DNA of 64,000 bases from an archaeon. Lineage in GTDB: Archaea; Iainarchaeota; Iainarchaeia; Iainarchaeales; 0-14-0-20-34-12. The position numbers were made by a program, and so were the translations under genes. The notes beneath the pieces are model-generated. The model did no database searches, had not been told where the DNA came from, and was given only the letters and a program-made list of their open reading frames with translations. The stretch lies in NCBI GenBank assembly GCA_038046645.1, contig JBBSVU010000006.1:10304-74303 (forward strand), read 5' to 3'. How positions within the stretch are numbered: the first letter of the stretch is position 1; every line of letters begins with the position of its first letter. Of this stretch, positions 4,237-64,000 are shown in pieces.

Positions 4237-4371
4237 AGAATACAACGAAAGCACAGTAATTACTTGATTTTAAGTGTTTTAAGTAATAGTTTTTAAAGTT
4301 GTATGTATCATCTCTATACATAAGTAGCGAATAAATATGTTATAATTTAATTGTGGAAGTGTGGGGGTAGT

Positions 4372-4950: not shown

Positions 4951-4954
4951 CTTA

Positions 4955-5419: not shown

Positions 5420-5765
5420 ATTTACCTTATTGATAGTAATTACTTAAAAATATTACGGTAATTACCTTATTGCCCCCAAACGCCACATATCTCTAAAGTA
5501 AGTGCTTTTTTATGCATTTTTATTTACCCACGCAACCCGCCTTAGTTTGATTTAATATTAAAAAACAAAGTAATTGATTTTTCATTAATGAAAAATCATC
5601 CCCTTGTTAGAAATCTAGTCTATTTTTTGAAAGTAATGATCCGTTTTTTATGTTTTTATCCCTTATCTTTAGGTTAGGACGTACCTAAAATCAGAGTAAT
5701 TGTTAATTTTAATATACTTTATTAAAAAAATCTACCATGGCCCATAAAATTAGAAAGTAATGGTA

Positions 5766-5855
5766 TAGCGGAGGAAGGATTTGAACCTTCGACCTTCGGG
5801 TTTCCAACATTAAAGTTATGAGCCCGACGGGCACTCCTGGCTGCCCTACCCCGCT
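5766..5855 (-). tRNA. Initiator tRNA-Met (anticodon CAT) with ~15-nt intron at canonical 37/38 position
   Basis: Hand-folded cloverleaf with an A1:U72 end pair and three consecutive G:C pairs in the anticodon stem (TCGGG/CCCGA). Loop CTCATAA with a 15-nt insertion. T-arm GAAGG-TTCAAAT-CCTTC. Confidence 0.7.
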
Positions 5856-6026
5856 ATTTTTCAGTAAATATAAGGACAAAAACGGTAGTATTCTATTTTA
5901 ATCGTTCTAAATTTACGTGTTTTACTAATCCTTGTTGCTTTTTATCCTTTTATTTAATAAAAAAGGAAAATACTCCTTTTTAAAGTTTAATTATTAATTC
6001 TAAAATACATCCAAGTTTATGTGTTT

Positions 6027-17373: not shown

Positions 17374-17454
17374 TTTTTCACCATACTATGCTTGTGCGAT
17401 TTTTTATTTATAAATGCTTTGGAAGAGTAGATTTCCCCTGAACTCCGTCTTTTC

Positions 17455-22857: not shown

Positions 22858-24051
22858 TTATTCTTTACGGTATTTCTTTTTTGCATTATTTAATGCAATG
22901 TGCACTGCCTGAGTACTTAAAGGCATTTCAGGGTCTAATACCTTACCAACTTCCCACAAATAAGGGAACCTTCCCTTTTCCCTAATTGTCCTTCTTACAA
23001 GTTTTGTATAGGCAGCAACAGCCCTTCTTTCTGAGGGTGCTAGATTGGCAGGCATTTCCTGCGTAAAAAATTCAGAATATCTATTTTGACTAACAATGCT
23101 TGACCTCCCATCTGAAGGTATGCTTGTAGTTTCTGCAACCTCCCTATATCTTTGTAATGTACTTCTTTCTCTTTTACTTTTTCTGAAAGTATTCAATATA
23201 AAAAAATTAGTGTGCATTCCAATAAAGGAATGTACTTTCATTCCTTTCGTTGGATCATACTCATCCAATTTTTCAAATAGCATTGCAGTTATTGCAGCAA
23301 ACATCTCACTATTATTGCAATTATACCTTTTCATAATGCTGTAGATTAAGCCTTTATTTTCTTTTATTTTATTGGCTTTTTCCCTAGGGCTGAAAAGATT
23401 TGTTTTTACTGCTTTATGCTCAATCCTTTTTGCTTTTCCCTTTTGCCTTAATTTTTCATAAATAGAGACTACATCATTTTTAGTTATGGTTCCATCGCCA
23501 TGTTCTTTTATATACTGTGGAATGTCATTTATTCGAATTTTTCTGGCAGGATCCGTTAAAATTTTCTTAACCATTGCTAAATCCCTTTCGCTAGGTAAAG
23601 GCCCTTGGCGATGTGTCTCTAGAAAAGCTAATTTTCCTAATCTTCTAATTTCTGGTTCAGTCCTTAATCCAGAATTTATTAAAATGGCACGCACAGTTCT
23701 TCCAGCGACTTTAATTCCTTCATCACCCATTTTTCTGGTGATCTCCTCAACATTCAATTTTCTAGTCTTCCCTAAAGGGCTTTCCACTTCTGAAGCAGCC
23801 AATTCTTTTATCTTTTCTATTGTTTCTGTAGGAACCTTCTGGTCTGAAAGTGCAATTCTTTTTGCCCTATCCCATTGTTCTTTTGATAGTCTTGAATACT
23901 TTCGAACAGTAGTTGTATCAACCCCAATACGCTCTGCTATCTCTATTTGTGTTAATGGCCTTTTTCTTGGTCTTTTTGCAAGTTTTCTTATTGTTGCTGT
24001 AACTTTTTTATTAGGAACCTTGGCGTTTGGGAATCTTCCTTTTGCTAGCAT
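22858..24051 (-). CDS. HTH-containing protein with C-terminal sigma-70 (ECF-like) region-2 and region-4-like segments; paralogue of 53901..55202
   Basis: HTH segment LTQIEIAERIGVDTTTVRKY. The stretch LFEKLDEYDPTKGMKVHSFIGMHTNFFILNTFRKSKRE matches the ECF sigma region 2.2-2.4 pattern. The C-terminal segment LAPSERRAVAAYTKL...STQAVHIALNNAKKK resembles region 4. Both paralogues carry an IPSDG motif. Confidence 0.5.
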   Translation of the reverse strand: MLAKGRFPNAKVPNKKVTATIRKLAKRPRKRPLTQIEIAERIGVDTTTVRKYSRLSKEQWDRAKRIALSDQKVPTETIEKIKELAASEVESPLGKTRKLNVEEITRKMGDEGIKVAGRTVRAILINSGLRTEPEIRRLGKLAFLETHRQGPLPSERDLAMVKKILTDPARKIRINDIPQYIKEHGDGTITKNDVVSIYEKLRQKGKAKRIEHKAVKTNLFSPREKANKIKENKGLIYSIMKRYNCNNSEMFAAITAMLFEKLDEYDPTKGMKVHSFIGMHTNFFILNTFRKSKRERSTLQRYREVAETTSIPSDGRSSIVSQNRYSEFFTQEMPANLAPSERRAVAAYTKLVRRTIREKGRFPYLWEVGKVLDPEMPLSTQAVHIALNNAKKKYRKE

Positions 24052-44299: not shown

Positions 44300-44303
44300 T
44301 GCA

Positions 44304-45509: not shown

Positions 45510-45547
45510 TTCAGGGGAAATCTACTCTTCCAAAGCTAATTTAAATG
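45510..45547 (+). promoter_or_regulatory. Promoter cassette: motif TTCAGGGGAAATCTACTCT + 9 nt + TATA-like AATTTAAAT, 20 nt before ATG 45567
   Basis: One of four copies at identical spacing (also 56523-56558, 58794-58829, 63964-64000). Confidence 0.55.
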
Positions 45548-45566: not shown

Positions 45567-46355
45567 ATGAATCTTTCTTTGATGTCTATTGAATATTTAA
45601 CTAATTCATTGTTAGATCCAAAAGTAATCACAAGAGAAGTAAAAGTCACTAAAAGAGATGCTTACTTTGATTTTATTGTTTATAGGAATGCAAGACGTTC
45701 GAGAATTCCGTTTGAACTTAATTCATCCATTGCATATCTTTGTGGAGTTATTTTAGGGGACGGTAGCATATCACTAATTCATAGGAAAAAAGTAAATACC
45801 GTTCTACCTTATACCTTTCTAAAAATATTCAACCAATCATTACCATTCTTACTTCAAATTAATCGCCTTTTTAAAGAAAATTTTGGGACTGAAGGCAAAC
45901 TATATAAAAAAAATTATTGTAACTGTTATGTTCTTCAAGTTTCTAATAAAATAGTTTGGTTATATTTTGTTAAACTACTTGGTTTGCCTATTGGTAAAAA
46001 AAGCAACATTAGTATTCCCCGATCTTTATTAAATAAGAATATTTTCAAATATTTTGTTGCAGGTCTAATGGATACTGATGGTTATTTTTCAGAAAACTCC
46101 TTTGGAATAATGCTTTCTGGATCTAATTTGATTTTTTTGGAGTCAATAAAAAAATATTGCAAGTGCTTTTATGGCATTAATTTTAGAAAAACTAATATAA
46201 ATACTTTAGAAGTTAATGGTAAATTATTTCAAAGAGCGCAGATAACTACTTCTGCGAATTCCATGAATACGTTTAAAGGAATAATTCCCCTATGTCATGA
46301 AAAATGGGATGGGCCCGGTGAGGATCGAACTCACGAGTTCCACCGTACCCAGTGA
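45567..46355 (+). CDS. Free-standing LAGLIDADG homing endonuclease (two LAGLIDADG motifs)
   Basis: YLCGVILGDGSI and FVAGLMDTDGYF motifs. The 3' end overlaps an antisense tRNA gene. Confidence 0.7.
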   Translation: MNLSLMSIEYLTNSLLDPKVITREVKVTKRDAYFDFIVYRNARRSRIPFELNSSIAYLCGVILGDGSISLIHRKKVNTVLPYTFLKIFNQSLPFLLQINRLFKENFGTEGKLYKKNYCNCYVLQVSNKIVWLYFVKLLGLPIGKKSNISIPRSLLNKNIFKYFVAGLMDTDGYFSENSFGIMLSGSNLIFLESIKKYCKCFYGINFRKTNINTLEVNGKLFQRAQITTSANSMNTFKGIIPLCHEKWDGPGEDRTHEFHRTQ

Positions 46356-49181: not shown

Positions 49182-50138
49182 TTGATTCCCCTATTTTATA
49201 TGCCAAACCTGAGGAGATTTTTTTCAGGGAAAAAGCCAAAATCTTTGCCGTCCGGCGTTTCAAAAAAAGACAGGCAGAGATATAAAAGCCTGAAAGGCAG
49301 AAGGATTCCAAAAAGACCTTCTGTGGGGGGGGCAAAATTGGAAAAAGGTCTTTCCCTGGCAACAAGAACAAAATTATTGGCCCCGAAGATTGAAGAATTT
49401 CTGCGAGGAAAAACCAAAGGTAGGAATCTTCTTTATGCTGATACTCTTAGCTGGTCTCTTCGACGCGTTCTATTTACTATTTTTGAAACAGTTGGTGAAG
49501 GTTTGCCAAGGGAAGTTTTTGACAGATCATTACCTGAAATATTCGCTCAAGCCGTTAGGCAGAAAGGAATAAGGTCAATTGCTGAAGTAGGTGCAGGAGA
49601 AACAGGAATTTTGACCGAAGCAAATGATTTGCTTGGGAAATCTAGAGTAAAAAGATATTCTGTTGGTGGAATGTCTGATCGTGAAAAATCTGCTTGCCGA
49701 AGATTGGGCATTGAAGTTATTCCAGAATATGCGGGGGATTTATCTAGAAGACATAAAGGAAAATGTGATCTCATAGTCGCAAGCAATGTATTCAGTTTTG
49801 GTGGTTCAGATGCCGGAGTTGGTAGTAATTCAATGAATAGGGCTTTTCTACAAAATACTAAAGCAGTTGTTGATTTGATTAAAACTTTAAGCAATAACCC
49901 AAATGCAAGGATTGTTTTGACAGAAGCAGAAGATTGTTTATTATTAGCTAGAAAAGAAATTGAGAGATATGCTAGAGTTGAAAGATGGCAACAAACAGAT
50001 ATGCCCAATGCACGTTATATTAGGGATCCTTTTTTCATAGAATTAAATGCAAGAAAAGCAGGCGGTCCTGCCCTTGCAAGAAAAATGAAAGAAGCACCAA
50101 ATATTGTTGTGCTTGCCCCACCACGTAAAATTCAATGA
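49182..50138 (+). CDS. Putative class I SAM-dependent methyltransferase with ~120-aa Lys/Arg/Pro-rich N-terminal extension
   Basis: Motif I IAEVGAGETG and motif II CDLIVASNVF. Locally higher GC than flanks. The start codon is uncertain. Confidence 0.45.
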   Translation: MIPLFYMPNLRRFFSGKKPKSLPSGVSKKDRQRYKSLKGRRIPKRPSVGGAKLEKGLSLATRTKLLAPKIEEFLRGKTKGRNLLYADTLSWSLRRVLFTIFETVGEGLPREVFDRSLPEIFAQAVRQKGIRSIAEVGAGETGILTEANDLLGKSRVKRYSVGGMSDREKSACRRLGIEVIPEYAGDLSRRHKGKCDLIVASNVFSFGGSDAGVGSNSMNRAFLQNTKAVVDLIKTLSNNPNARIVLTEAEDCLLLARKEIERYARVERWQQTDMPNARYIRDPFFIELNARKAGGPALARKMKEAPNIVVLAPPRKIQ

Positions 50139-50486: not shown

Positions 50487-50589
50487 CGAGCCCGCTGGGA
50501 TTCGAACCCAGGACACCCAGATTAAGAGTTTCACCTCATGTTATAATCAAATAACAGAACTGGTGCTCTGCCAACTGAGCTACGGGCCC
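50487..50589 (-). tRNA. tRNA-Lys (CTT) with 30-nt intron at a non-canonical position (within the 5' strand of the anticodon stem, ~30/31)
   Basis: The exons reproduce the tRNA-Lys(TTT) body exactly (GGGCCCGTAGCTCAGTTGGCAGAGCAC...). Anticodon arm CCAG|intron|A-CTCTTAA-TCTGG. Confidence 0.7.
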
Positions 50590-53751: not shown

Positions 53752-53900
53752 TAATAAAAATAGATTGATTTATTAGGACAAGTAACAAAAGAGGCAGAAA
53801 GAGCAGTTGTAATAATGTAGCCGCATGAAGAATAACAAGCCCAATCCCTAATTCAGAACCTTCCATTACTTTAAAAAATTCTTTTATTGCTGTTTTTATT

Positions 53901-55202
53901 ATGGTTACAAGGCGAAGATTAGGTATTAAACATAACTCATTGCTCACATGGCGTTCGATTGATAAGGAAAGATTAGTTCACAGGCCTAACGTAAAGATAT
54001 GCTCTAAGCAGATTAGTGTTTCTTTTTTGGAATGGCTGAAGCATTTAGAATCTCCTTACACTTTTCTCAGCAGATTAAAAGCAGAAAAGAAAGGCGAGAA
54101 ATATTTAAGGCCAAAATCTGAAAAGCAAAGGAAAGAGGATTTGGTCCAATTGGAAAAATTTTGGTATGTTACCAAAGGAAGGGTATTGCTAGGGAAATTG
54201 TTTGCGGACAAGGATTTGACTGAAGCAGGGATTGCTAAGGAGATGTCTAGGCAGGGCTTTAAGATGAGCCGTGAATTTGTCAGGCAAATAAAGGTTGCAT
54301 GGCAGCTTGAAAGGGATACTCGGTTTACCCGTGCCACAAGAACCCGTAAAAAAGTGCTTGATCTTATTAAAGAACATCCTACTTGGTCTTTTAAAAAAAT
54401 TGGTGCAGAGGCAGGAATTGGCACTGAGTATGCTTCTCATATTGTCCAGTCAGCCGGAGTAAAGAAACCCCCTGCAGGAAGGGTTTCCCCAGAAGAGCGT
54501 GCTGCCAGAGAAAACTTTTTGTACTCTGCTGGCATTGAGTTTTCTGGGCCTGTTCGCACGCCTTCAATTAAGATGAAGGCGCATGCAATTCACATGTATA
54601 CTAAGTATCGTGATAATGATGGCAACAATTTTGTTGTTCGGCATTATAACCCTTTTTTGAAGTTGACTTCTGGCAAGGTTGATACATCTATTAGGATTTT
54701 GGATAAATATGGTGTGGACTGGAGAGATGATGATAAGGGTTTATGGCGATTGATTAGTAACAGTACTTCTACGCTTAGGGCTAGATTGGGATTGTTTGAA
54801 TTGCTTGGAGTCTCTCCTGAATTACATTATTTGCTAATCTGTAACTTTCGTAATGGAATTAGGCATTTTAACCAGGAGGGTTTTGCTTCAATGCGCGAAG
54901 CCGTTGTTTCCCATAATATTCCTGTGCTGAAAAATTTTGTTAGAGGAACTTGTAATAAAATGCTGAATAGAAGTGCAAGACCCCCTAATGCAGATTTTTT
55001 TGAAGCTGCTGAAAACGCCTTTGTTACTGTAATGAGCGAATGCAAGCATCCTGAAAAACACCCTGCGGCTTTTCTTACATTAGTTTCTCATGCTATAGGT
55101 GATGCCTTAAATAAAGAGGCAATACATTTTGCTAGGACAAGCTCAATAGAAGATTTTACTGATATTCCTTCTGATGGAACAAGGCCAAGGAGAAAATTAT
55201 AA
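53901..55202 (+). CDS. HTH-containing protein with C-terminal sigma-70 region-2-like segment; paralogue of 22858..24051
   Basis: HTH-like GIAKEMSRQGFKMSREFVRQIK and IGAEAGIGTEYASHIVQ. C-terminal DFFEAAENAFVTVMSECKHPEKHPAAFLTLVSHAIGDAL and a shared IPSDG motif. Lys/Arg-rich N-terminus. Confidence 0.45.
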   Translation: MVTRRRLGIKHNSLLTWRSIDKERLVHRPNVKICSKQISVSFLEWLKHLESPYTFLSRLKAEKKGEKYLRPKSEKQRKEDLVQLEKFWYVTKGRVLLGKLFADKDLTEAGIAKEMSRQGFKMSREFVRQIKVAWQLERDTRFTRATRTRKKVLDLIKEHPTWSFKKIGAEAGIGTEYASHIVQSAGVKKPPAGRVSPEERAARENFLYSAGIEFSGPVRTPSIKMKAHAIHMYTKYRDNDGNNFVVRHYNPFLKLTSGKVDTSIRILDKYGVDWRDDDKGLWRLISNSTSTLRARLGLFELLGVSPELHYLLICNFRNGIRHFNQEGFASMREAVVSHNIPVLKNFVRGTCNKMLNRSARPPNADFFEAAENAFVTVMSECKHPEKHPAAFLTLVSHAIGDALNKEAIHFARTSSIEDFTDIPSDGTRPRRKL

Positions 55203-55610
55203 AGCAATTCCCTTAAAATTTTTATAAAAAATTTAGTGAAAAGTGAGGACGGAATAGGGAAATTTTTTTTCACTGAGAACTCACTTCCATAAGCTTTAAA
55301 AACATCTTTTCCAGATTTTCTTATATGGAATTTGTTTTTTCAAAAAAAGAAATTTCTTTCAACAGAGAACTGTCTTTTCTTGACAGGTTTGTGTTGAAGT
55401 TCACCAAATTACTTGAAAAGCATAAAATTGACTATGTGATTATTTCAGGTTATATTGCAATTTTGTTTGTAGGGAAAAGTTAAAATAAAATTTACCTTAA
55501 TAATCTATTTTTGTAGACTAAACAAATAGTATCCCACTTGCCTTATACCCCCGTTTTTATTTATTATGTATTCTATTCTATTTTTATTTATTCTGCATTT
55601 TATTTAACAT

Positions 55611-56501
55611 ATGCCTGTATTAAAAAAACCCGCACCAAGGCCAAGAAGGCCTTTTGCTGAAATAACCGAATCAAGAAAAGGCCCTCTGAATGTAGCGCTT
55701 GCTGATTTTTATGACGAACATGGCAGATGGGTAAAAAGAAAATCAAAGGTAACGGTAGGGGGCAGATTAGTAGAGAGGCGCAAGCACACTGTTGATAAGG
55801 AAGGGCCTAAATATATACAAGATGTTTATTCTGACAAAGGTAAGCTTATTGGTTCTATCATAACCCAAAGAGAACCTGCTTTTGATTTAAATAGAGGGGA
55901 AGACAGGTTTCATCTTGAGGTTAAGGATAAAAGGCGTGGTCAGATTAGAACAATAGATGCAATACACAAAGGAAAATTTGAAGATGTAAATATTGCCCAT
56001 TTAAATGAATGGCTTTCAGCCGAAATATTAGATATGCCTATATTTGATAGGCCTATTTTTGATAAGCCTGATTTTGCAAGAAATCTTGCAACTGCATTAA
56101 CTAGGGCTCCATATTTTTTCTTTGAAAACTTTTCAGATGCAAGAATGGAAGAATTTGCAAGGTATGTTGCTGAACATAAATACGAATTTATGTCCGGCAT
56201 AAGCAAAAATCCCGACGGTTTTTGGAATTCTTTGCATAAACATAAATATGCTTTTGCAAAAAACCTTGAGCGTTTCTTGTTGGAAGGCCATATAGAAAGG
56301 GATAACGCCCTGATGATTGCATTTAAATTAAGTGGCGTAAATCTGGCTGGTGAAGGAAGGTTAGCGCCTGCAATAAGGCGCAGTATGCGGCAAGAGGAAA
56401 TTGATAAACAAGCAAGAGCCAATGCTGAACAAAGAAGATTATTGCAAGAAGCAGAAAGGGCTGTTGTAATAAAACCGCCATCCAAGCAACCAAAAAAGTA
56501 A
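55611..56501 (+). CDS. Hypothetical protein (Pro/Arg-rich N-terminus MPVLKKPAPRPRRP; FDRPIFDKPDF repeat)
   Basis: ORF with coding-like composition. No known domain recognised. Confidence 0.45.
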   Translation: MPVLKKPAPRPRRPFAEITESRKGPLNVALADFYDEHGRWVKRKSKVTVGGRLVERRKHTVDKEGPKYIQDVYSDKGKLIGSIITQREPAFDLNRGEDRFHLEVKDKRRGQIRTIDAIHKGKFEDVNIAHLNEWLSAEILDMPIFDRPIFDKPDFARNLATALTRAPYFFFENFSDARMEEFARYVAEHKYEFMSGISKNPDGFWNSLHKHKYAFAKNLERFLLEGHIERDNALMIAFKLSGVNLAGEGRLAPAIRRSMRQEEIDKQARANAEQRRLLQEAERAVVIKPPSKQPKK

Positions 56502-56522
56502 CCTTATTTTTATTTGCAAACT

Positions 56523-56558
56523 TTCACAGGAAATCTACTCTCTCCATTTGTTTATAAA
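56523..56558 (+). promoter_or_regulatory. Promoter cassette copy: TTCACAGGAAATCTACTCT + 9 nt + TTTATAAA, 24 nt before ATG 56583
   Basis: Same motif and spacing as 45510, 58794 and 63964. Confidence 0.55.
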
Positions 56559-56582
56559 CCCCAAATTCTCTTTTATTTCAGA

Positions 56583-57680
56583 ATGAATCCTTTAAGAATA
56601 ATTTCTGAAGCTGTTGAAAACATAAAGCAGAATGAGGCAAAGAGAGTAGATGCAGTAAAAGAAATTCTTGCAAAAAAATATTCGAAAATTGATTTTGATA
56701 CAGGTTCAAAAAATTGCTTGCTTGAAGATAAATTGGTTTTTCCAATTGCTGAACATACTTTGAATTCAAGGATTGCGGCGGTTGATTCAGGCTTTGTTGG
56801 AAAAAACCTTTATTCTTTTGACCTGCTTTTCATAAGGACAGCAGGTGTACTTTTTACTTATAAAAACAACATTCTTGAGAGGGCAGCATATTACCCAGAA
56901 ATGTTTTCCTTCCCAAAGCCAATTTTCATCAATGGAGCTTTACAATTAGATGAAAGCTCGGTTTCAAGAAGCCTTTACCGCCTATTTGAAGAAATTGGCT
57001 TAGCCAAAGAAATAATTGAAAAGGAAAAGCCGGAATACTGTTTAATCGACGGTTCAATTATTCCACAGCATGCAGACAAGCCAAGAAAGGATTCTAAGGT
57101 AACAAATTCATATTCAAAGGTTATTTCCCTATTTGAAAGTTTATACAAAGCAGCAGAAGATAATGGCACAATTTTAATCGGATGTATTGAAGATTCAAGA
57201 GGTTCAAGATTCAGGGAAATAATCCAGCAGAATTTTGTTTCTGAACTGAATAAACCAAGGTTAGATGATTGCTATGATTCTGTTTTGTTGGATTCCTTGC
57301 TAAAAGAAAAGGAAAGAACCTCTGCATTCCATTATACAAACAATATCGAAATGCACCCTATACTTTCAGATTTTAATGAAAAATATTCAAAAGCCGTGAA
57401 TGTTTGTTACTTAAAACCTTCAAAATATGATCGTGCATTAAGGATTGAATTTTTGTCAAATGAAAGGAATGAAAAACTAACTGAATTTGTGGATAAAATT
57501 TCACCCGTAATCTGCCAATTGTCATCACTGCACAGGGAATATGCATTTCCCTCCCCTTTAATAGAAGCAGATTTAAGGGCAGGTTTAAATCCAGACGAAA
57601 TAGAATTTGTTTTCAACAAAATAGCTGACAAATTAGGCAATAATTTTAGGCTAATGCGCAGGGATTCAAGGCCGTTTTAA
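56583..57680 (+). CDS. NurA-like nuclease (RNase H-like fold) - tentative
   Basis: RIAAVDSGFVG near the N-terminus and CLIDGSIIPQ mid-protein resemble the NurA catalytic Asp motifs. The real start is probably ATG 56583 (MNPLRIIS), downstream of the TATA box. Confidence 0.45.
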   Translation: MNPLRIISEAVENIKQNEAKRVDAVKEILAKKYSKIDFDTGSKNCLLEDKLVFPIAEHTLNSRIAAVDSGFVGKNLYSFDLLFIRTAGVLFTYKNNILERAAYYPEMFSFPKPIFINGALQLDESSVSRSLYRLFEEIGLAKEIIEKEKPEYCLIDGSIIPQHADKPRKDSKVTNSYSKVISLFESLYKAAEDNGTILIGCIEDSRGSRFREIIQQNFVSELNKPRLDDCYDSVLLDSLLKEKERTSAFHYTNNIEMHPILSDFNEKYSKAVNVCYLKPSKYDRALRIEFLSNERNEKLTEFVDKISPVICQLSSLHREYAFPSPLIEADLRAGLNPDEIEFVFNKIADKLGNNFRLMRRDSRPF

Positions 57681-57824
57681 ACAAGCATTATTGAAGTTAT
57701 CCTTAACCTATTTATTCTATTTGTTCACTATTTTAATATGCCTAGCCCAAAACCCTCAAGAAAAGTTATGTTTAAGAAAAACATTCTAATGCTAGTTGGG
57801 GTTAGTTCCCTCTTAGCCAATTAC

Positions 57825-58715
57825 CTAGGTAAAATATGCTTTCTTAGGGAATTGTATTGAGCTTGCTGTTCCTGCTACCAAACGCCCGTTACCTGTCTTT
57901 GGGTCAATTACTACAAAAAAGCATTTTGCTATCTCAGCACATAAATTAGGGGTGGCACTTTCTTTTGCTAGGTTGCTTAGTTCTGCTTTAGCTTTCAATA
58001 TCTTATCTCTGTATTCTTTGAACTGCTTGCGTAATTCTTCATAATTGGGAATGTTCTTTCTGCGTGTTGCATAATAATCTAATACTTGTTTAGTTCCTCC
58101 TTCAGATAAATCCTCAACAGGCAACACAGCGCAAGTCATTACCTGTTCTGGATTTGTTTTTACTAATTTATAAGATTCAATGGTTGGAATGCCCATATTT
58201 CGCAATATTTTAAAATTTTCATTTTCAAGGTGAAGCCATATTGTTCCATGCCTATGGCTTACAAAATAATTTTCATCAAAATATCTTTTTCTTATTGCAG
58301 CAGGCACATTATCAGGCAATTCCCCAACTCCAATAATCCCTAAATTCATCTTTCCTTCTAACTCAGAAAGCTGCCTTCTGACCCAATTATCAGGATATCT
58401 GCAGGCTTTAAGTGCAAACCATTTTCTTTCACCAGTTTTATGGTCATCAAATTGCCCTGCCCTAAAAACAAGTATCTTGCCACCAACCCCTAAAAGCCTT
58501 GGGTCTTGCTTGCTTATTGCAACAGTTTTGATGCCTCTTGGAAAAATATATCTAAATCTTTCCATAACAAGTGTTTGCATGCTATTTCTGCTGACTTCTG
58601 TTACTTTCAGTTCAGCACTTCTTTCAATCATATCCTTTCTTCTTAAGAGTTTTGACAATTTTCTTAATCCTTTGTGAAATCTGTTCTTTAGTCCCAGCAA
58701 ACTTGGCTTAATCAT
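57825..58715 (-). CDS. Hypothetical protein (basic N-terminus; HRHGTIWLHLENEN segment), divergent from HerA-like gene
   Basis: ORF only. Confidence 0.45.
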   Translation of the reverse strand: MIKPSLLGLKNRFHKGLRKLSKLLRRKDMIERSAELKVTEVSRNSMQTLVMERFRYIFPRGIKTVAISKQDPRLLGVGGKILVFRAGQFDDHKTGERKWFALKACRYPDNWVRRQLSELEGKMNLGIIGVGELPDNVPAAIRKRYFDENYFVSHRHGTIWLHLENENFKILRNMGIPTIESYKLVKTNPEQVMTCAVLPVEDLSEGGTKQVLDYYATRRKNIPNYEELRKQFKEYRDKILKAKAELSNLAKESATPNLCAEIAKCFFVVIDPKTGNGRLVAGTASSIQFPKKAYFT

Positions 58716-58793
58716 ATTCTACTCATATTGCAACCTTCTTAATTATTTTTGGTTTGCAGGTAATACACAAAAAGTGTCCACTAGAAAGAATAG

Positions 58794-58829
58794 TTCAGGG
58801 GAAATCTACTCTTTGCAATGCTTTATAAA
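58794..58829 (+). promoter_or_regulatory. Promoter cassette copy: TTCAGGGGAAATCTACTCT + 9 nt + TTTATAAA, 24 nt before ATG 58853 (divergent region shared with 57825..58715)
   Basis: Same motif and spacing as the other copies. Confidence 0.55.
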
Positions 58830-58852
58830 CAACCTTTTGGCTTAAGTAATTC

Positions 58853-61800
58853 ATGGTTATAAATAATTCACAGACTGTTGGCACAGTAATTTCAGCAATA
58901 AATTCCCCAAACCCTAGTTCTGCAGATTTTGTTGTTACCTCTGGCTTAATACACAGAGGGCAATTTGTTGAAATAGAAAATCCATCAGGCAATTTTATTG
59001 CCTTGGTAATGGACGTATATAAAACAAACAAATATTTTGAAAGGGCTGACTCAGTAAAAGAATTTGAATCAAAAGGCCAAGCATTATTTGAACAGTTTCC
59101 TGTACACGAATGGGAATACCTTGTCGCAAATACAAAACCTTTAGGTGTGTACTCTGGCGACAATTTCTACAGGCCAAGCTTTCCTCCATCCCCAGGATCA
59201 AAGGTAAGGATTGCTGATTCTGAAAAATTAAAAAAATTCTTCCATTTTGATGAATCTGGCTTGCATTTAGGCAATGTTGAATACCATGATTTATCTGTTA
59301 AACTGAATCTGTCAAGGATGTTGAAGAAACACCTAGCAATTTTAGCTATGTCTGGTTCGGGAAAATGCGGTGATTACAATCTTGAAATATTGTTGAGTAA
59401 TGGCAGGACAATTAAGCTTGGTGAGCTTGTTGACAACCATTTGAAAAATAAAAAAGTAATTGAAGATAATGTCGAGGTCTGTGATGTTAATCCAAATAAC
59501 TTAAAAGTAATTTCCATAGGTAAAGATAATCAACCAATAACCTCTGAAATTAAGGCGTTTATGAGGAGGAAGGCCCCAAAAAAGATGTTTAGAATCAGGA
59601 CAAGAACAGGCAAACAATTATTGATTACTCCAGAGCACCCAATACCGATTCTAAATGAACAAATAAATTGGATTCAAGCTAAAAATCTTGCTAAAAAAGA
59701 TTACCTAATTACGACAATGCCCCTAATAGAGGGATCAGAACAAATAATTGATTTTGTCCAATTATGGAAGAATTCTTCTAAAGTCAGAGTTGATGATGAG
59801 CTTATTCTGGCTGAATTAAAATCTAAACTTTTTGAGAAATATTCAATAAAAGAGTTTTCAAAAATCATTAATATGACCCCCCAAAAACTACAATATTTAT
59901 TATCGCATTCAGGAGTTCCTTTGGATTATCTAAAATTAATTTGTAACAAATTAGGCGTGGATTTTTTGGAGATATGTTCAAAAATAAAAACATTAAAAGT
60001 ACTGTCTTCCAGAATCCCTGCAAAGGTTATTGTTGATGAAAAATTTGCAAGATTTATGGCTTATTTGTTAGCAGAAGGACATAATAGTGGTCAAACTATT
60101 ATTTTTACTAATAGCTCTACTTTAATTAGGGAAGATTTTAGCAATCTAACAAAATTATTTGGTGTTACTGCAAGCATTAATAGAAAGAGGGATATTGAAC
60201 TTAGAATTTATAACAAACTTTTAGCAGACAGTTTATTTAAGTTAGGTTTTACTGATTCTAGTTGGACCAAATATATTCCAGAGGAGATTCTATTAAGTAA
60301 AAAATCAGTTTTAGCAGCTTTTTTGGGTGCATTTATTGATTGTGATGGTTATGTTAGTTCTAAGAAATCACATATCGAAATAACGCTTGCCAGTAAACAG
60401 ATGTTAGACAACATAGAACAGATAGTTTTGCGATTTAAGTTAAATCCAATAAGAAAGATAAAAACAGTTAAAGGCAAACAATATGGCAGGTTATTTTTAG
60501 GCGGTGCGGATTATTTAACTATCCTAAATAATGAATTAACCCTTTTAATAGACTATAAAGCAAAAGCGCTTAAGGAATGTTCCTTAAAAAAACCAAATTC
60601 AAACATTAGGGTAATCCCCAACATTAAACATACTTTAGCTTTCCTACAAAATAAGCTTAATTTAACCCAAAGCCAATTTGTTAATATTGCTAATTATTTG
60701 TCGCGAGAGGAAAGGCATGATGATCCAACACCCACTTCGTTAAAATCTTTACTGAATGAATTTGAACATAATTATGAAAGTATTCAGAGTACCCTAGCTC
60801 AAACAAAAAAATTATTTTATGCTATGCCAAATTTAACTGAAGAAGATGCAAAAAAAATACTTGTAGATGCCTACTCTAAATATGATTTTAACAAAATTGC
60901 TAAAAATACAAATATTTCAAGCACTACCGCAAGAAGAGTAGTAAGAGGTTTAACCGAACCAAACCTAAATACCTTTTGCCTTGCTAAAAATGCCTTGGCT
61001 TTAGAAAATGAATCTGATTTAGGCATAGATGTAATTACTAATTTAGACTTTAAGCAACTAGCCAGTCAAATTAGGGTTTTGTGTAAAAATATTGGTTGTG
61101 AAATACAGGAGTTATGCAACAGAAGTGGGTTTAACGATCAATATTTGGATGGTTATTCTTACAATCCCTTAAATACAATAAGGTATTCAAATATCTACAA
61201 GGTTTTGTATAATCTCTTTATTATTTCATTAGATAAAGAAAAGCAATTGCCTGAAATTAGAGAGAAACTTGATTTTTTGCACACACTTATTTCTGATAGC
61301 TTATTTTTTGATGCAATTGAATCTGTTGAAGAGGTTGATTATGACAAAGAATATGTTTATGACTTATGTGTAAAAGAGCACAATTTTGTTGCAAATAATC
61401 TAATCATTCACAATAGTTTTTCAACAGCTTGTTTAATTGAAGAGCTCCTTAACCGGCAAAAAGAAAAAGGCAGGATTGCAATTGTTGTTTTAGACCCGCA
61501 TGGTGAATATTCCAGCTTTGCCCAGCCTGTGAAAGATGGCAAGTATGAGGATTTTTCTGACCGCACGAAAATCATTAAAGCCCAAAACATCAGAATAGCT
61601 GTGCCAAAAATGAGCGTTCATATGCTTTCTGGAATAATTCCTGGATTAACAATTCCGCAGAAAAGGGATTTAAGCAGGATTTTATCAAGCCTTAAAGAAG
61701 ATATGTATCGCGGCTTAGGGCCTTTTGATTGGTCACATGTAAAAGATGCAATTTTGAAAGATGACAATATAAAGCAAAATTCAAAATTCCCTTTAATGGG

Positions 61801-62449
61801 CTGGATTGATGATCTAATGTCCTATAACTTATTTGCGAGGACAGATATGCCTGCTGTTTCTGAATTAATTAAACCAGGAACATTAACAATACTTGATTTT
61901 TCAGACATAGTGAACATGAAAAAGAAGCAGATGATTGTAAGTTATTTTGCAAACAAGCTGTTTGATGAAAGAAAATCAAATGTAATTCCCCCGACACTTT
62001 TAATTGTGGAGGAAGCTCATCAATGGTGTCCGCAGATGGCATCAGAAGAATCAGCTATTTCCCGTTCCATTCTGCGAACAATTGCAAGGGAAGGAAGAAA
62101 ATTTGGAATGTCCCTTTGCATAATTTCTCAAAGGCCTGTTCAGCTTGATACCACAACACTTTCACAATGTTCCACTCATTTAATTTTGCGCATTACAAAC
62201 CCAAACGATTTGAAACACATAGCAGAATCATCAGAAGGAATTGACCAAAGAAGTTTTGGAATAATAAATTCCTTGCAGGTTGGGGAAGGATTGCTTGTTG
62301 GGGAAGCAACAGGCTATCCATTATTTTTTAAGGTAAGGTATAGGAAATCAATGCCAAGCAAGCATGAAATTTCCCTAGAAGATGCAGCTTTGAAATTTGA
62401 AAGCTCTGCAGATAAAACAAAGGCTGAAACCGAGGGATTTTTGGAATAA
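58853..62449 (+). CDS. HerA-like FtsK/HerA-superfamily ATPase interrupted by a 683-aa intein in the Walker A motif (extein ~515 aa)
   Basis: N-terminal HAS-barrel-like region. Walker A GSGK|C...HN|S restores GSGKS after splicing. DPHGEY, LLIVEEAHQW and ISQRPVQLD motifs typical of HerA. Confidence 0.75.
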   Translation: MVINNSQTVGTVISAINSPNPSSADFVVTSGLIHRGQFVEIENPSGNFIALVMDVYKTNKYFERADSVKEFESKGQALFEQFPVHEWEYLVANTKPLGVYSGDNFYRPSFPPSPGSKVRIADSEKLKKFFHFDESGLHLGNVEYHDLSVKLNLSRMLKKHLAILAMSGSGKCGDYNLEILLSNGRTIKLGELVDNHLKNKKVIEDNVEVCDVNPNNLKVISIGKDNQPITSEIKAFMRRKAPKKMFRIRTRTGKQLLITPEHPIPILNEQINWIQAKNLAKKDYLITTMPLIEGSEQIIDFVQLWKNSSKVRVDDELILAELKSKLFEKYSIKEFSKIINMTPQKLQYLLSHSGVPLDYLKLICNKLGVDFLEICSKIKTLKVLSSRIPAKVIVDEKFARFMAYLLAEGHNSGQTIIFTNSSTLIREDFSNLTKLFGVTASINRKRDIELRIYNKLLADSLFKLGFTDSSWTKYIPEEILLSKKSVLAAFLGAFIDCDGYVSSKKSHIEITLASKQMLDNIEQIVLRFKLNPIRKIKTVKGKQYGRLFLGGADYLTILNNELTLLIDYKAKALKECSLKKPNSNIRVIPNIKHTLAFLQNKLNLTQSQFVNIANYLSREERHDDPTPTSLKSLLNEFEHNYESIQSTLAQTKKLFYAMPNLTEEDAKKILVDAYSKYDFNKIAKNTNISSTTARRVVRGLTEPNLNTFCLAKNALALENESDLGIDVITNLDFKQLASQIRVLCKNIGCEIQELCNRSGFNDQYLDGYSYNPLNTIRYSNIYKVLYNLFIISLDKEKQLPEIREKLDFLHTLISDSLFFDAIESVEEVDYDKEYVYDLCVKEHNFVANNLIIHNSFSTACLIEELLNRQKEKGRIAIVVLDPHGEYSSFAQPVKDGKYEDFSDRTKIIKAQNIRIAVPKMSVHMLSGIIPGLTIPQKRDLSRILSSLKEDMYRGLGPFDWSHVKDAILKDDNIKQNSKFPLMGWIDDLMSYNLFARTDMPAVSELIKPGTLTILDFSDIVNMKKKQMIVSYFANKLFDERKSNVIPPTLLIVEEAHQWCPQMASEESAISRSILRTIAREGRKFGMSLCIISQRPVQLDTTTLSQCSTHLILRITNPNDLKHIAESSEGIDQRSFGIINSLQVGEGLLVGEATGYPLFFKVRYRKSMPSKHEISLEDAALKFESSADKTKAETEGFLE
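59366..61414 (+). mobile_element. Intein with LAGLIDADG homing-endonuclease domain (Cys1 ... His-Asn, +1 Ser)
   Basis: Starts CGDYNLEILLSNGRTIKLGELV (block A). LAGLIDADG blocks FMAYLLAEGHNSG and LAAFLGAFIDCDGYV. Ends FVANNLIIHN followed by S. Confidence 0.8.
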
Positions 62450-62465
62450 TCATCAACTTGCCTAT

Positions 62466-63101
62466 TTATTTCCTTAATTCTTTAATAATCTGGTCCCTGG
62501 CCTGAATGCATGCGTTTTTGCATTCTTCATTTAATGGTGATGGAAGATTTCTGCTATCAACAATCTCCTTATCAGTTATTTTGCCAATTGCTGAAACAGC
62601 CCTAGTTATTCCTTCTTGGTATTCTGCTTCACTTTTACTTCTTAGCCCAAGCAAGTGTTTAAAACTCTCAATTGATCCAGTGCGGCTTCCAGTAATTGGT
62701 ACGGCATATTGCACTACAAAGTGGAGGCGCAAGCGTTCACCAGTGTGTTTGTTGCCATTTCTTATTGATTCAATGACTCTTTCTTTTGTTCCTAAATATA
62801 TTGGCCTTACTGCATCAACAATTGCATTTTCTGCATACAGCTCTAAAGCATCGCCATACCTTGCTTTTAAATCTTTCCAGAACCTGGCATAAATTGTTTC
62901 TAAACGTCTTAATTCACCTGTTCCCTGCTCTGGGGGAAGAGCACCTTCTTTAATCCAAACAAGCTGTTTTGCTAATTCTTCACTGCATTCTCTTTTCAAT
63001 TCCTTTAATGGCGGGCGCCGTATTGGAATAGCTTCATGGCTTTCAATAGACCTTCTTCGTGCCATATTCCAAGGAACTGGTTTTGCTGGTGCTTTTGGCA
63101 T
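62466..63101 (-). CDS. Hypothetical protein (Pro/Lys/Arg-rich N-terminus MPKAPAKPVPW..RRRS)
   Basis: ORF only. Confidence 0.45.
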   Translation of the reverse strand: MPKAPAKPVPWNMARRRSIESHEAIPIRRPPLKELKRECSEELAKQLVWIKEGALPPEQGTGELRRLETIYARFWKDLKARYGDALELYAENAIVDAVRPIYLGTKERVIESIRNGNKHTGERLRLHFVVQYAVPITGSRTGSIESFKHLLGLRSKSEAEYQEGITRAVSAIGKITDKEIVDSRNLPSPLNEECKNACIQARDQIIKELRK

Positions 63102-63181
63102 AATATTTACTTCTTTAGAACTGTTTATATTTGTTATTATGTAGTAGAATGTGTTTCCTTTAGTTTATAACAAAAACTATC

Positions 63182-63901
63182 TTGATTTATTTTTTAGGAT
63201 TGTTTTTAATTGTTTTATGTGCTTATTTTTGTATGCCTGTGAAGTTAAGAACCAGAACAATTAGATTTAGGGAACGGCAGGGCCAAGATACTTATTATTA
63301 TGAATTAATTAAGGAAAGAATAAAGCGCCGTTGGAGATATCGTATCCGTAAAGGATTAATGAAGGCAGCAGAATGCCATAGTGCAATATTTAACAGGTTG
63401 AAAAAATTAGGAATCCCAATATCTACTTTATATGATGTAAGAACCGGCGGGATGCAATATACTGCCAAGGATATGTCAAAAGGCGGCTATTTAAGGATAA
63501 TTAATGCATATGAAGCAACAATTGCAGCAAGAAAGCGTACAAAAAAATGGGCTGATGCATCTGCCTACTGGAAAGACAACCCTATCTCGAATATGCGCAG
63601 CATTGTTTCAGGCATTACTAGGGATTTGGCAATAATGCACAAAAATGGCTTGTTTATTTCAGGGCGAAGAGTTGTTCTTGAACCTTGGCTTGTTTATTTT
63701 CGCGGAAAAGAAAATGAGAAGCAAAGAATTGCATCAAGGGCAATCACTGATGTCGGGTCAATACTTGAAACATCCAAAATGAGTATTAATGATATTTATG
63801 ATGCATATATGGATAATATTGAAGACCTACATATTAGTTTTCCTGAAGAATATCAAAGCCTTATTGATAAAACATATGCAAAATATTTTACTTCGGCCTA
63901 A
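63182..63901 (+). CDS. Hypothetical protein (N-terminal hydrophobic segment then Arg-rich region)
   Basis: ORF only. Confidence 0.4.
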   Translation: MIYFLGLFLIVLCAYFCMPVKLRTRTIRFRERQGQDTYYYELIKERIKRRWRYRIRKGLMKAAECHSAIFNRLKKLGIPISTLYDVRTGGMQYTAKDMSKGGYLRIINAYEATIAARKRTKKWADASAYWKDNPISNMRSIVSGITRDLAIMHKNGLFISGRRVVLEPWLVYFRGKENEKQRIASRAITDVGSILETSKMSINDIYDAYMDNIEDLHISFPEEYQSLIDKTYAKYFTSA

Positions 63902-63963: not shown

Positions 63964-64000
63964 TTCAGGGGAAATCTACTCTCCTTCAATTTCTTTAAAT
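63964..64000 (+). promoter_or_regulatory. Promoter cassette copy: TTCAGGGGAAATCTACTCT + 9 nt + TCTTTAAAT at window end (target gene outside window); truncated copy TTCAGGGGAAATGCCCC at 63936-63952
   Basis: Same motif and spacing as the other copies. Confidence 0.5.

What the first reader, a model, noticed from the sequence alone, without database searches (positions are those of the whole stretch)
53901..63901. Accessory island of uncharacterised, GC-richer genes whose products share Lys/Arg/Pro-rich N-terminal leaders
- From 53.9 kb onward the genes have no recognisable housekeeping homologues and visibly higher GC than the flanks.
- The products include a sigma-like HTH protein, a 296-aa FDRPIFD-repeat protein, a NurA-like protein, a basic 296-aa protein and proteins of 211 and 239 aa.
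- Several begin with short basic/proline-rich peptides (MVTRRRLGIKH, MPVLKKPAPRPRRP, MIKPSLLGLKNRFHKGLRKLSKLLRRK, MPKAPAKPVPW...RRRS, MPVKLRTRTIRFRER). This feature is shared with the MTase-like gene at 49182 and the sigma-like gene at 22858.
- Such leaders could be nucleic-acid-binding arms, packaging or targeting peptides of a virus or plasmid, or export signals of a symbiont.
- Together with the intein/HEG-rich HerA-like gene and the shared promoter cassette, this looks like an integrated or lineage-specific module rather than core genome.
Basis: partly seen in the sequence, partly recalled or inferred. Interest (0 to 1): 0.6.

Follow-up and report, generated by a model that had tools for sequence, protein, structure and literature searches.

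The report
Basic-tailed orphan genes around herA–nurA
This stretch is not a foreign island: it is the DNA-repair (NurA/HerA) neighbourhood of a tiny DPANN archaeon, interleaved with fast-evolving, arginine-rich orphan proteins that nearly all start with a short Met-Pro plus Lys/Arg/Pro tail of unknown, probably nucleic-acid-binding, role.

Summary
The window is chromosomal DNA of a Diapherotrites-like DPANN archaeon from groundwater.

**Island claim: not supported.**
- Region GC is 0.349 against 0.347 for the rest of the window, and tetranucleotide and codon usage are native.
- NurA and an intein-bearing HerA lie inside the region. RpoK, S17e and Rad50 follow it.
- No integrase, flanking repeats or viral/plasmid homologues were found.
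- The orphan genes are slightly GC-richer only at codon position 2 (Arg, Pro and Trp enrichment). Their GC3 is lower than in core genes.

**Leader observation: real, and it generalises.**
- All five orphans in the region, plus the genes at 22858 and 49200, have strongly basic N-termini.
- Across the window and six related loci, 26/61 proteins without a Pfam hit have N-terminal net charge ≥+4, against 3/73 with a hit. 21/61 against 2/73 start with Met-Pro.
- The orphans belong to several unrelated families and have pI around 10.
- They are under purifying but relaxed selection (dN/dS 0.24–0.29 against 0.05–0.09 for core genes).
- They differ in presence and order between close relatives.
- One family is predicted to have a protein-kinase-like fold, and another carries HTH motifs.

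Tail function is inferred only. A nucleic-acid-contacting arm is my best guess (about 35%). A new targeting signal is not excluded.

The parts
53901..55202 (+). 433-aa orphan with leader MVTRRRLGIKH. All-alpha protein with two HTH-like units and a confident C-terminal helical domain.
   Evidence: No family hit. Homologues are P0024 (50% identity, HTH_24 above cut-off) and P0025 (37%). AF2 gives pLDDT 69 and pTM 0.42, with residues 1-27 disordered. Fold searches give only HTH-level matches.
53789..53815 (+). Possible relic of the 3' end of a 296a-type gene, just upstream of the 433-aa gene (tentative).
   Evidence: 24 of 27 nt match 56446-56472 (alignment). Its position matches the L002 gene order 291 then 411.
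55325..55483 (+). Truncated remnant (52 codons) of a DUF2204/AbiEii-like nucleotidyltransferase gene.
   Evidence: 77% nt identity to the start of the intact 202-aa gene in L001. The L001 protein hits DUF2204 at E=3.7e-6.
55611..56501 (+). 296-aa orphan ('296a') with leader MPVLKKPAPRPRRP. Contains a short (PxFD)x3 repeat at nt 56034-56084.
   Evidence: The only homologues are the near-identical strain copy and the L002 orthologue at 65% identity. dN/dS is 0.27 overall and 0.39 for leader codons 2-40.
56523..56559 (+). Promoter cassette (19-mer plus TATA) of nurA.
56583..57680 (+). NurA nuclease (core gene).
   Evidence: Pfam NurA E=1.9e-13. 88-90% identical and syntenic in L001 and L002.
57825..58715 (-). 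296-aa orphan ('296b') with leader MIKPSLLGLKNRFHKGLRKLSKLLRRK. Possibly a distant relative of the kinase-fold family.
   Evidence: Singleton cluster. hhalign against the 222-aa family gives probability 39-51% and E of about 2e-4 over about 60 columns.
58794..58830 (+). Promoter cassette of herA.
   Evidence: An exact copy lies upstream of herA in L002.
58853..62449 (+). HerA ATPase (core gene), interrupted by an intein.
   Evidence: Pfam DUF87/HerA, Intein_splicing and LAGLIDADG_3. PADLOC HerA 1e-42. 88.6% identical in L001 and L002, intein included.
59366..61414 (+). 683-aa intein with a LAGLIDADG endonuclease, inserted in Walker A (GSGK|S). It accounts for the low-GC trough at 59-62 kb.
   Evidence: GC 0.303 against 0.371 for the exteins..
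62466..63101 (-). 211-aa orphan with leader MPKAPAKPVPWNMARRRS.
   Evidence: No hit in any library. Found only in near-identical strains.
63233..63901 (+). 222-aa orphan with leader MPVKLRTRTIRFRER. Member of a rare family with a predicted protein-kinase-like fold.
   Evidence: The family has 15 clusters among 1.84 billion representatives. AF2 gives pLDDT 71 and pTM 0.73. Foldseek top hit is PRPK/Bud32 at E=1.1e-4, and every listed hit I recognised, Rio1 included, is a protein kinase or kinase-like protein.
63964..64000 (+). Promoter cassette of the conserved 504-aa gene that starts just beyond the window.
49200..50138 (+). 312-aa orphan outside the region with the same leader type (MPNLRRFFSGKKPK).
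   Evidence: No family hit.
22858..24051 (-). 397-aa orphan outside the region with a basic leader. Weak HTH and Sigma70_r2 signals only.

Best explanation
**What it is.** The 53.9-63.9 kb stretch is ordinary chromosome of a Diapherotrites-like DPANN archaeon. nurA, herA and the next gene are each transcribed from their own copy of a shared promoter cassette. The gaps between them hold small, separately promoted genes for a lineage-wide class of orphan proteins.

**What the orphans are like (shown).**
- They are arginine-rich and basic, with pI around 10.
- They evolve three to four times faster than the core genes but remain under purifying selection.
- They come from several unrelated families. 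One has a predicted protein-kinase-like fold and another carries HTH motifs.
- They carry a short N-terminal tail that usually starts Met-Pro and continues with Lys, Arg and Pro. The two modelled tails are predicted to be disordered.
- The slots turn over by local insertion, deletion and rearrangement, so close relatives carry different orphans at the same positions.

**How it most likely works (inferred).** The tail is probably an electrostatic arm that holds these proteins on nucleic acid (AT-rich DNA or RNA), in the way of histone-H1/SPKK-type or HU-extension tails. On that reading the orphans are nucleic-acid-associated regulatory proteins.
For: **Native composition.**

**Core genes inside and after the region.**

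**Synteny of core genes, with orphan replacement between them.**
- A truncated DUF2204 gene lies where the 296a gene now sits.

**No mobile-element or viral signal.**

**Leader statistics.**
- Window: p=0.0017.
- Relatives: 3.24 against 0.16, p=0.0004.
- Pooled: net charge ≥+4 in 26/61 against 3/73 (p=7.5e-8), and Met-Pro start in 21/61 against 2/73 (p=9e-7).
- The same pattern appears in more distant loci with 43-47% GC.

**Tails are predicted disordered.** pLDDT is below 50 for residues 1-17 and 1-27 in the two models.

**Tails are translated and conserved.**
- AT-rich TATA-like elements lie about 20-35 nt upstream of each annotated ATG.
- The 296a leader is 72% identical to its orthologue, with dN/dS 0.39.

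**Whole proteins are basic and Arg-rich.**
- Arg enriched 2.5-fold.
- Median pI 10.0.
- Interiors more basic than core proteins.

**HTH support.** HTH_24 above cut-off in homologue P0024.

**Families are unrelated.** hhalign all-against-all.
Against: - Nothing here tests nucleic-acid binding directly.
- A kinase-fold protein has no obvious need for a DNA arm.
- The strict N-terminal position and the Met-Pro start look more like a positional signal than a generic basic arm. C-termini are not significantly more basic than in core proteins.
- The related loci are few and partly non-independent. Some were fetched through one orphan family, and some of their genes are orthologues of window genes.
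- 'No Pfam hit' is only a proxy for lineage-specific.
- Four of the orphan families have no structural model.
Confidence: 0.6

Rival explanations
1. The Met-Pro plus basic tail is a lineage-specific targeting or translocation signal. It would mark a set of fast-evolving effector-like proteins that the DPANN cell delivers to a partner cell, a vesicle or a particular compartment.
For: - The tail sits at the extreme N-terminus of unrelated families, with Pro at position 2 in 19 of 35 leader proteins. Positions 3-6 are dominated by K, P and R.
- C-termini are not enriched in the same way.
- The carriers evolve fast and turn over between relatives, as effector repertoires do.
- Diapherotrites have been proposed to be symbiotic (PMC5905446).
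Against: - There is no hydrophobic h-region, so it is not a Sec, Tat or class III signal (hydrophobicity counts).
- No secretion machinery is linked to these genes in the loci examined.
- The whole proteins are basic, not only the tail.
- No known prokaryotic export signal has this form.
Confidence: 0.15
2. The tails have no specific function. High pI, disorder and basic termini are general properties of young, rapidly evolving orphan proteins, and the cluster is simply a recombination-tolerant stretch between independently promoted genes.
For: - The orphans are fast evolving (dN 4-10 times that of core genes).
- They are basic throughout.
- Leader sequences keep their composition more than their sequence in the 222- and 433-aa families.
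Against: - The Met-Pro enrichment (21/61 against 2/73) is not predicted by a mere composition effect.
- The 296a leader is at least as conserved as the rest of the protein.
- Arg, Pro and Trp enrichment runs against the AT mutational bias, and GC3 is fully native, so it must be maintained by selection.
Confidence: 0.17
3. One reading: the region is an integrated virus, plasmid or other mobile island, and the leaders are packaging or nucleic-acid-binding arms of its proteins.
For: - Orphan content differs between close relatives.
- A toxin-type nucleotidyltransferase remnant and an intein with a homing endonuclease are present.
- dS of the 433- and 222-aa genes against L002 exceeds that of the flanking core genes. 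This suggests non-orthologous replacement.
Against: - Composition and codon usage are native.
- Core NurA and HerA lie inside the region, with the same promoter cassette as RadA elsewhere in the window.
- No integrase, att sites or terminal inverted repeats.
- No hits in IMG/VR, INPHARED, PLSDB, PHROGs, PADLOC or BFVD.
- Leader orphans are dispersed in other chromosomal contexts in relatives.
Confidence: 0.06
4. The leaders are annotation artefacts, arising from wrong start codons or spurious ORFs.
For: - 63182 is an upstream TTG alternative to the 63233 ATG.
- 57825 has an internal Met at residue 29.
Against: - Orthologues conserve the leader peptides.
- dN/dS is below 0.3.
- AF2 gives folded models.
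- TATA-like elements lie about 20-35 nt upstream of the annotated ATGs.
- NCBI and two other pipelines call the same starts.
Confidence: 0.02

Closest known systems
Archaeal herA-nurA(-mre11-rad50) DNA end-resection gene neighbourhood
   Same: NurA and HerA are present, adjacent and conserved. Rad50 lies a few kb downstream in the same strain.
   Different: The genes do not form one operon. Each has its own copy of a 19-nt cassette plus TATA box, and orphan genes (one on the opposite strand) sit between them. HerA carries a 683-aa intein in its Walker A motif.
Basic Lys/Pro/Ala-rich DNA-binding tails (histone H1 / SPKK motifs, N-terminal extensions of Deinococcus and actinobacterial HU) - comparison from my own knowledge
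   Same: Short, disordered, K/R/P-rich segments attached to a folded domain, in an AT-rich genome. Examples are MTPKKTPTKPP, MPKAPAKP and MPVLKKPAPRPRRP.
   Different: Here the tails are only about 10-25 residues long and always at the extreme N-terminus. They usually start Met-Pro and occur on many unrelated orphan families. No binding has been tested.
Bud32/PRPK and RIO small atypical protein kinases
   Same: The 222-aa family has the same size and predicted bilobal kinase fold. The top Foldseek hit is PRPK (6wqx_D, E=1.1e-4), and A. fulgidus Rio1 reaches TM 0.45. A beta3-like Lys (K40) and a DxG Asp (D173) are conserved.
   Different: There is no sequence-profile match to Pkinase, RIO1 or Kdo: one member in 14 hits Kdo at E=0.044. 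The HRD-type catalytic Asp is not recognisable. The family is rare (15 clusters), has two copies in the L001 locus, evolves fast and carries the basic leader.
Genomic islands / integrated mobile elements
   Same: A cluster of uncharacterised genes whose content differs between related genomes.
   Different: There is no compositional deviation, integrase, att site or tRNA border, and no mobile-element homologue. Conserved core genes lie inside the cluster.

Membership tests
Genomic island / integrated mobile element | Base composition or codon usage deviating from the host genome | tested here: not met
   Region GC is 0.349 against 0.347, its tetranucleotide distance is average, RSCU r=0.97, and orphan GC3 is lower than in core genes.
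Genomic island / integrated mobile element | Integrase or transposase plus flanking direct or inverted repeats, or a tRNA border | tested here: not met
   No integrase or transposase domain in the region. No convincing terminal repeats. The nearest tRNA is at 50487-50589, 3.3 kb outside.
Genomic island / integrated mobile element | Present or absent as a block relative to related genomes | tested here: not met
   Pth, NurA and HerA stay syntenic in L001 (and NurA and HerA in L002). Only the genes between them differ, one slot at a time.
Genomic island / integrated mobile element | Homologues in viruses or plasmids | tested here: not met
   No hits in IMG/VR, INPHARED, PLSDB or PHROGs. BFVD best E is 0.035.
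NurA nuclease family (56583-57680) | Match to the Pfam NurA domain above the gathering score | tested here: met
   50.9 bits against a cut-off of 21, E=1.9e-13.
HerA/FtsK-type ATPase with intein (58853-62449) | DUF87/HerA domain, plus an intein splicing domain and LAGLIDADG interrupting it | tested here: met
   Pfam hits. PADLOC HerA 1e-42. Junctions are GSGK|C...HN|S.
Protein-kinase-like superfamily (222-aa family, 63233-63901) | Bilobal kinase fold | tested here: met
   The AF2 model has pTM 0.73. PRPK/Bud32 is the top Foldseek hit at E=1.1e-4, and every listed hit I recognised is a protein kinase or kinase-like protein. TM scores are only 0.3-0.46.
Protein-kinase-like superfamily (222-aa family) | Sequence-profile match to a kinase family (Pkinase, RIO1, Kdo, APH) | tested here: not met
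   One of 14 members hits Kdo at E=0.044. The PDB profile search finds no kinase.
Protein-kinase-like superfamily (222-aa family) | Catalytic residues: beta3 Lys, HRD Asp/Asn, DFG Asp | tested here: inconclusive
   K40 is nearly invariant and D173 (DxG) is invariant, but no HxD catalytic loop is recognisable after the RDLAxMHxNG helix. The residue mapping is by eye, not by structural superposition.
Sigma-70 family (53901 and 22858 proteins) | Sigma70 region 2/4 profile matches above cut-off | tested here: not met
   53901 has no hit. 22858 hits Sigma70_r2 at 18.5 bits against a cut-off of 24, and TIGR02937 at 21.7 against 42.9. Fold hits to sigma factors have probability ≤0.13.
Winged-helix / HTH DNA-binding proteins (433-aa family) | HTH profile match | tested here: inconclusive
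   Homologue P0024 hits HTH_24 at 24.2 bits against a cut-off of 21.9, at the position aligned with residues ~164-184 of the window protein. The window protein itself has no hit. The model shows helices 108-133 and 164-184.
Known archaeal signal peptides (Sec, Tat, class III) | Hydrophobic h-region following the basic n-region | tested here: not met
   The leader proteins have at most 6-8 hydrophobic residues in any 15-residue window of the first ~55 residues. Membrane proteins in the same window score 13-15.
AT-hook / SPKK minor-groove-binding motifs | Core motif (RGRP, or S/T-P-K/R-K/R) and demonstrated DNA binding | not tested
   Only read by eye. TPKK is present in one relative (L003, 107 aa), and most leaders are merely K/R/P-rich. 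Binding cannot be tested with these tools.

The most novel reading that the evidence does not exclude
A Met-Pro-(Lys/Arg/Pro) N-terminal tail is a previously undescribed positional signal shared by many unrelated, fast-evolving orphan protein families in Diapherotrites-like DPANN archaea. It would mark a dedicated effector or regulator repertoire that is sorted, modified or delivered (for example to a host cell) through recognition of this tail.
Probability: 0.15. Interest if true: 0.75.

Novelty: new variant of a known kind. Interest (0 to 1): 0.45.

Why it matters
- DPANN genomes consist largely of hypothetical proteins, and there is little to go on when grouping them. A simple, testable N-terminal signature would give a first handle on that dark proteome. 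The signature combines a Met-Pro start, a K/R/P tail, Arg-richness and fast evolution, and it cuts across unrelated orphan families in several genomes.
- If the tail proves to be a recognition signal rather than a generic basic arm, it would point to an unknown sorting or modification system in ultrasmall archaea.
- The work also corrects a tempting misreading. Higher GC here reflects amino-acid composition (GC2), not foreign DNA.
- It adds a rare kinase-fold family.
- It reveals a shared promoter cassette linking radA, nurA, herA and two other genes.

Tried and rejected
- **Paralogy among the orphans.** BLASTP all-against-all and hhalign all-against-all of 20 orphan families found only one weak link (296b to the 222-aa family) and one pair in L003. 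The leaders are therefore not inherited from a single ancestral family.
- **Family annotation.** Pfam, PHROGs, NCBIfam, PADLOC and PDB sequence searches gave nothing significant for the orphans.
- **Viral or plasmid origin.** IMG/VR pattern scans for two families, tblastn and megablast against phages, megablast against plasmids, and a BFVD fold search were all negative.
- **Transposon reading of the 433-aa HTH protein.** No DDE-type fold match (Mos1 hit at E=0.6, probability 0.08), no terminal inverted repeats and no near-identical copies.
- **Wider sampling.**
  - The genome scan found one relative.
  - The metagenome scan added only the same lineage and two short fragments.
  - Word-index protein searches found at most four homologues per family.
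- **Literature.** Searches found no description of such leaders in DPANN.
- **NRMT-type X-P-K N-terminal methylation motif.** Considered, but only a minority of leaders fit, so it was not pursued.

Full report
**Source and context**

Exact look-ups place the window on a 213-kb contig of an 'archaeon' MAG (proteins MEK69727xx, locus tags AABW72_). DnaG and NurA are annotated there and the orphans are listed as hypothetical proteins. Contigs from Hainich aquifer groundwater assemblies are 99.98-100% identical to it. The nearest distinct genome is Candidatus Diapherotrites archaeon CG08_land, with NurA 87-88% identical in alignment (84% over the longer ORF by tblastn). The organism is therefore a Diapherotrites-like DPANN archaeon with about 35% GC.

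**Check of the observation**

The ORFs exist as described.

Within 53.9-63.9 kb there are two well-supported core genes:
- NurA, Pfam E=1.9e-13.
- HerA, carrying DUF87 plus Intein_splicing plus LAGLIDADG_3. The intein spans aa 172-854 and is inserted in the Walker A motif.

The near-identical contig L009 shows what follows the window end: a conserved 504-aa gene, RpoK, ribosomal protein S17e and then, by position matching L002, probably Rad50. 'No housekeeping homologues' is therefore wrong.

'Visibly higher GC' is also not borne out:
- The region is 0.349 GC against 0.347 for the rest of the window.
- 67 of 108 ten-kb windows are at least as GC-rich.
- Its tetranucleotide distance to the window average is typical.

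The seven leader-bearing genes are slightly GC-richer than other genes (0.378 against 0.353). This comes from codon position 2 (0.405 against 0.318, p<1e-4). GC3 is lower (0.277 against 0.318), and relative synonymous codon usage correlates with core genes at r=0.97. The GC excess therefore reflects amino-acid composition (Arg 2.5-fold, Trp 2-fold, Pro 1.4-fold enriched), not foreign DNA.

The leader observation holds. I used external gene calls and precomputed or fresh Pfam assignments for all 70 window genes.

| Measure (window genes) | No Pfam hit | With Pfam hit | Test |
|---|---|---|---|
| Mean net charge, residues 2-21 | +1.8 (n=27) | +0.4 (n=43) | Mann-Whitney p=0.0017 |

- Five of the seven lie in this 10 kb.

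**Replication in relatives**

I fetched loci from five other lineages (L001/L004, L002, L003, L007, L014/L016). The same pattern recurs.

| Measure | No Pfam hit | With Pfam hit | p |
|---|---|---|---|
| Mean N-terminal net charge (L002, L003, L007) | 3.24 | 0.16 | 0.0004 |
| Net charge ≥+4 (pooled, window plus six loci) | 26/61 | 3/73 | 7.5e-8 |
| Second residue is Pro (pooled) | 21/61 | 2/73 | 9e-7 |

- Typical leaders are MPVVKKPAPKPR, MPARRRGIAKG, MPAPKPIRKVFLRPKK, MPKSKRKLPP, MPRKRKSM, MTPKKTPTKPPVRP, MPPKKIPLVRKEH and MPAPKKLKKSAPR.
- The carriers have median pI 10.0, against 8.5 for proteins with a Pfam hit. Their Arg content is 9.2% against 4.1%.
- Their interiors are also more basic than those of core proteins. 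Their C-termini are not significantly so.

Caveat: the loci are few. Some were retrieved through one orphan family, and some of their genes are orthologues of window genes. The p-values therefore overstate independence.

**Are the leaders translated?**

- Each annotated ATG has an AT-rich TATA-like element about 20-35 nt upstream. This fits leaderless archaeal mRNAs, though it is weak evidence in an AT-rich genome.
- The 296a leader is 72% identical to its L002 orthologue, with dN/dS 0.39.
- Three pipelines call the same starts.
- AF2 models place the tails in low-confidence, presumably disordered segments: residues 1-17 of the 222-aa protein and 1-27 of the 433-aa protein.

**What the orphans are**

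They are not one family. BLASTP and hhalign all-against-all detect only a weak link between the 296b protein and the 222-aa family (probability 39-51%) and one paralogous pair in L003.

*The 222-aa family*
- It is rare, with 15 clusters among 1.84 billion representatives.
- It occurs in chromosomal contexts.
- It is predicted (pTM 0.73) to adopt a protein-kinase-like fold. Foldseek's best hit is human PRPK/Bud32 (E=1.1e-4). Every listed hit I recognised is a protein kinase or kinase-like protein, including A. fulgidus Rio1 at TM 0.45.
- A Lys in the predicted N-lobe (K40) and a DxG Asp (D173) are conserved, but no HRD-type loop is recognisable.
- No kinase profile matches it. I therefore call it kinase-fold and of uncertain activity.

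*The 433-aa family*
- It is all-alpha with two HTH-like units.
- Its 50%-identical homologue P0024 matches winged-helix HTH_24 above cut-off.
- Neither PDB nor BFVD fold searches go beyond HTH-level similarity, and there is no sigma or transposase support.

*The remaining orphans*
- The 296a, 296b, 211-aa and 312-aa proteins remain without any assignment.

*Selection*

All three orphans with an orthologue in L002 are under purifying but relaxed selection.

| Genes | dN/dS | dN |
|---|---|---|
| Orphans (433-aa, 296a, 222-aa against L002) | 0.24-0.29 | 0.24-0.63 |
| NurA, HerA, Pth | 0.05-0.09 | about 0.06-0.08 |

**Island or not**

Synteny comparisons show core genes fixed and orphans variable.

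| Genome | Gene order |
|---|---|
| Window | Pth, 433, [NTase remnant], 296a, NurA, 296b(-), HerA, 211(-), 222, 504 |
| L002 (NurA 90% identical) | 162, 188, 291 (=296a), 411 (=433), NurA, 406 (433 paralogue), HerA, 237 (=222), 504, RpoK, Rad50 |
| L001 (CG08) | Pth, 202-aa DUF2204 nucleotidyltransferase, NurA, 97(-), 142, 214, HerA, 225, 504 |

- In L001, the 214- and 225-aa proteins are paralogues of the 222-aa family.
- The window retains only the first ~48 codons of the DUF2204 gene (55325-55483). The 296a gene sits where the rest should be.
- A 27-nt stretch upstream of the 433-aa gene matches the 3' end of 296a at 24 of 27 positions. This fits the L002 order, but the match is short and tentative.
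- In more distant genomes, members of these families sit in quite different chromosomal contexts.
- No integrase, terminal repeats or bordering tRNA were found.
- Searches of IMG/VR, INPHARED, PLSDB, PHROGs, PADLOC and BFVD were negative.

The region is a local concentration of orphan genes in slots between independently promoted core genes, not an integrated element.

**The promoter cassette**

The 19-mer TTCAGGGGAAATCTACTCT, followed by a TATA box, occurs five times in the window against 0.03 expected. The five copies lie upstream of:
- RadA
- a free-standing LAGLIDADG gene
- NurA
- HerA
- the 504-aa gene

None lies upstream of an orphan. Exact copies lie upstream of herA and the 504-aa gene in L002. 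The cassette therefore argues for a core DNA-repair regulon, not for a mobile module. It also explains why insertions between these genes are tolerated.

**Mechanism**

*Shown:* a class of Arg-rich, basic, fast-evolving, lineage-restricted proteins from unrelated families, each carrying a positionally fixed N-terminal Met-Pro/K/R/P tail, predicted disordered in the two proteins modelled.

*Inferred:* the tail most likely acts as an electrostatic arm contacting nucleic acid, by analogy with H1/SPKK-type tails and HU extensions (comparison from my own knowledge). This fits the HTH content of one family (and weak HTH signals in a second) and the AT-rich genome.

I put about 35% on that specific role. 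The rivals are:
- A new targeting or recognition signal, about 15%. The strict N-terminal position and the Met-Pro start favour it. The lack of any hydrophobic segment or linked machinery counts against it.
- A by-product of orphan-protein composition, about 17%.
- A mobile or viral origin, about 6%.
- Annotation artefact, about 2%.

**Verdict**

The island interpretation is not supported.

It is a moderately interesting lead into the DPANN dark proteome rather than a demonstrated new system. I rate it as a new variant of a known kind, with interest 0.45.

Noticed in passing
window 17424-17442(-), 45510-45528(+), 56523-56541(+), 58794-58812(+), 63964-63982(+); L002 6321 and 10799: The 19-nt cassette TTCAGGGGAAATCTACTCT, followed about 8 nt later by a TATA box, lies 50-60 nt upstream of RadA, a free-standing LAGLIDADG gene, NurA, HerA and a conserved 504-aa gene. 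That is 5 copies against 0.03 expected. It is a candidate operator of a DNA-repair regulon.
   Followed up: partly
window 50487-50589 (-): Rfam detects a 103-nt tRNA (49.7 bits), presumably intron-containing, that ARAGORN did not report.
   Followed up: no
window 44278 (gene 43322-45509): The window lacks a GA dinucleotide that is present in the otherwise 99.98%-identical contig L013. This splits a 729-aa signal-peptide-bearing protein with no Pfam hit into two ORFs. Two mismatches lie within 100 nt. It could be a strain variant, a pseudogene or an assembly error.
   Followed up: partly
window 9561-11429 (-): A long RelA/SpoT homologue (HD_4, RelA_SpoT, TGS, ACT; 622 aa) is encoded in this archaeal genome. 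As far as I know, long RSH enzymes are unusual in archaea.
   Followed up: no
window 1-6000: This is the segment with the largest tetranucleotide deviation in the window (0.14-0.16 against about 0.09). It holds a Xer-type tyrosine recombinase (2886-3767) and a 92-nt tRNA-Met (5765-5856), and GC falls to 0.29 at 5-7 kb. If any part of the window is foreign, this is the better candidate.
   Followed up: no
window 59366-61414 (within herA): A 683-aa intein with a LAGLIDADG endonuclease is inserted in the HerA Walker A motif (GSGK|C...HN|S). Its GC is 0.303 against 0.371 for the exteins. It is conserved at the same site in L001 and L002.
   Followed up: partly
L009 18413-19927 (starts about 60 nt beyond the window end); L001 11916-13430; L002 10858-12372: A 504-aa protein has no Pfam, NCBIfam or PADLOC match, yet it is 94% identical between the window strain and L002 (dN/dS 0.13) and is preceded by the repair cassette. 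It is a conserved unknown that may belong to the repair set.
   Followed up: partly
window 55325-55483: A 52-codon remnant of a DUF2204/AbiEii-like nucleotidyltransferase gene that is intact (202 aa) in the CG08 relative. Its 3' part has been replaced by the 296a orphan gene.
   Followed up: yes
window 45567-46355 (+): A free-standing 262-aa LAGLIDADG homing-endonuclease-like gene carries the same repair-gene promoter cassette as herA, whose intein holds another LAGLIDADG domain.
   Followed up: no
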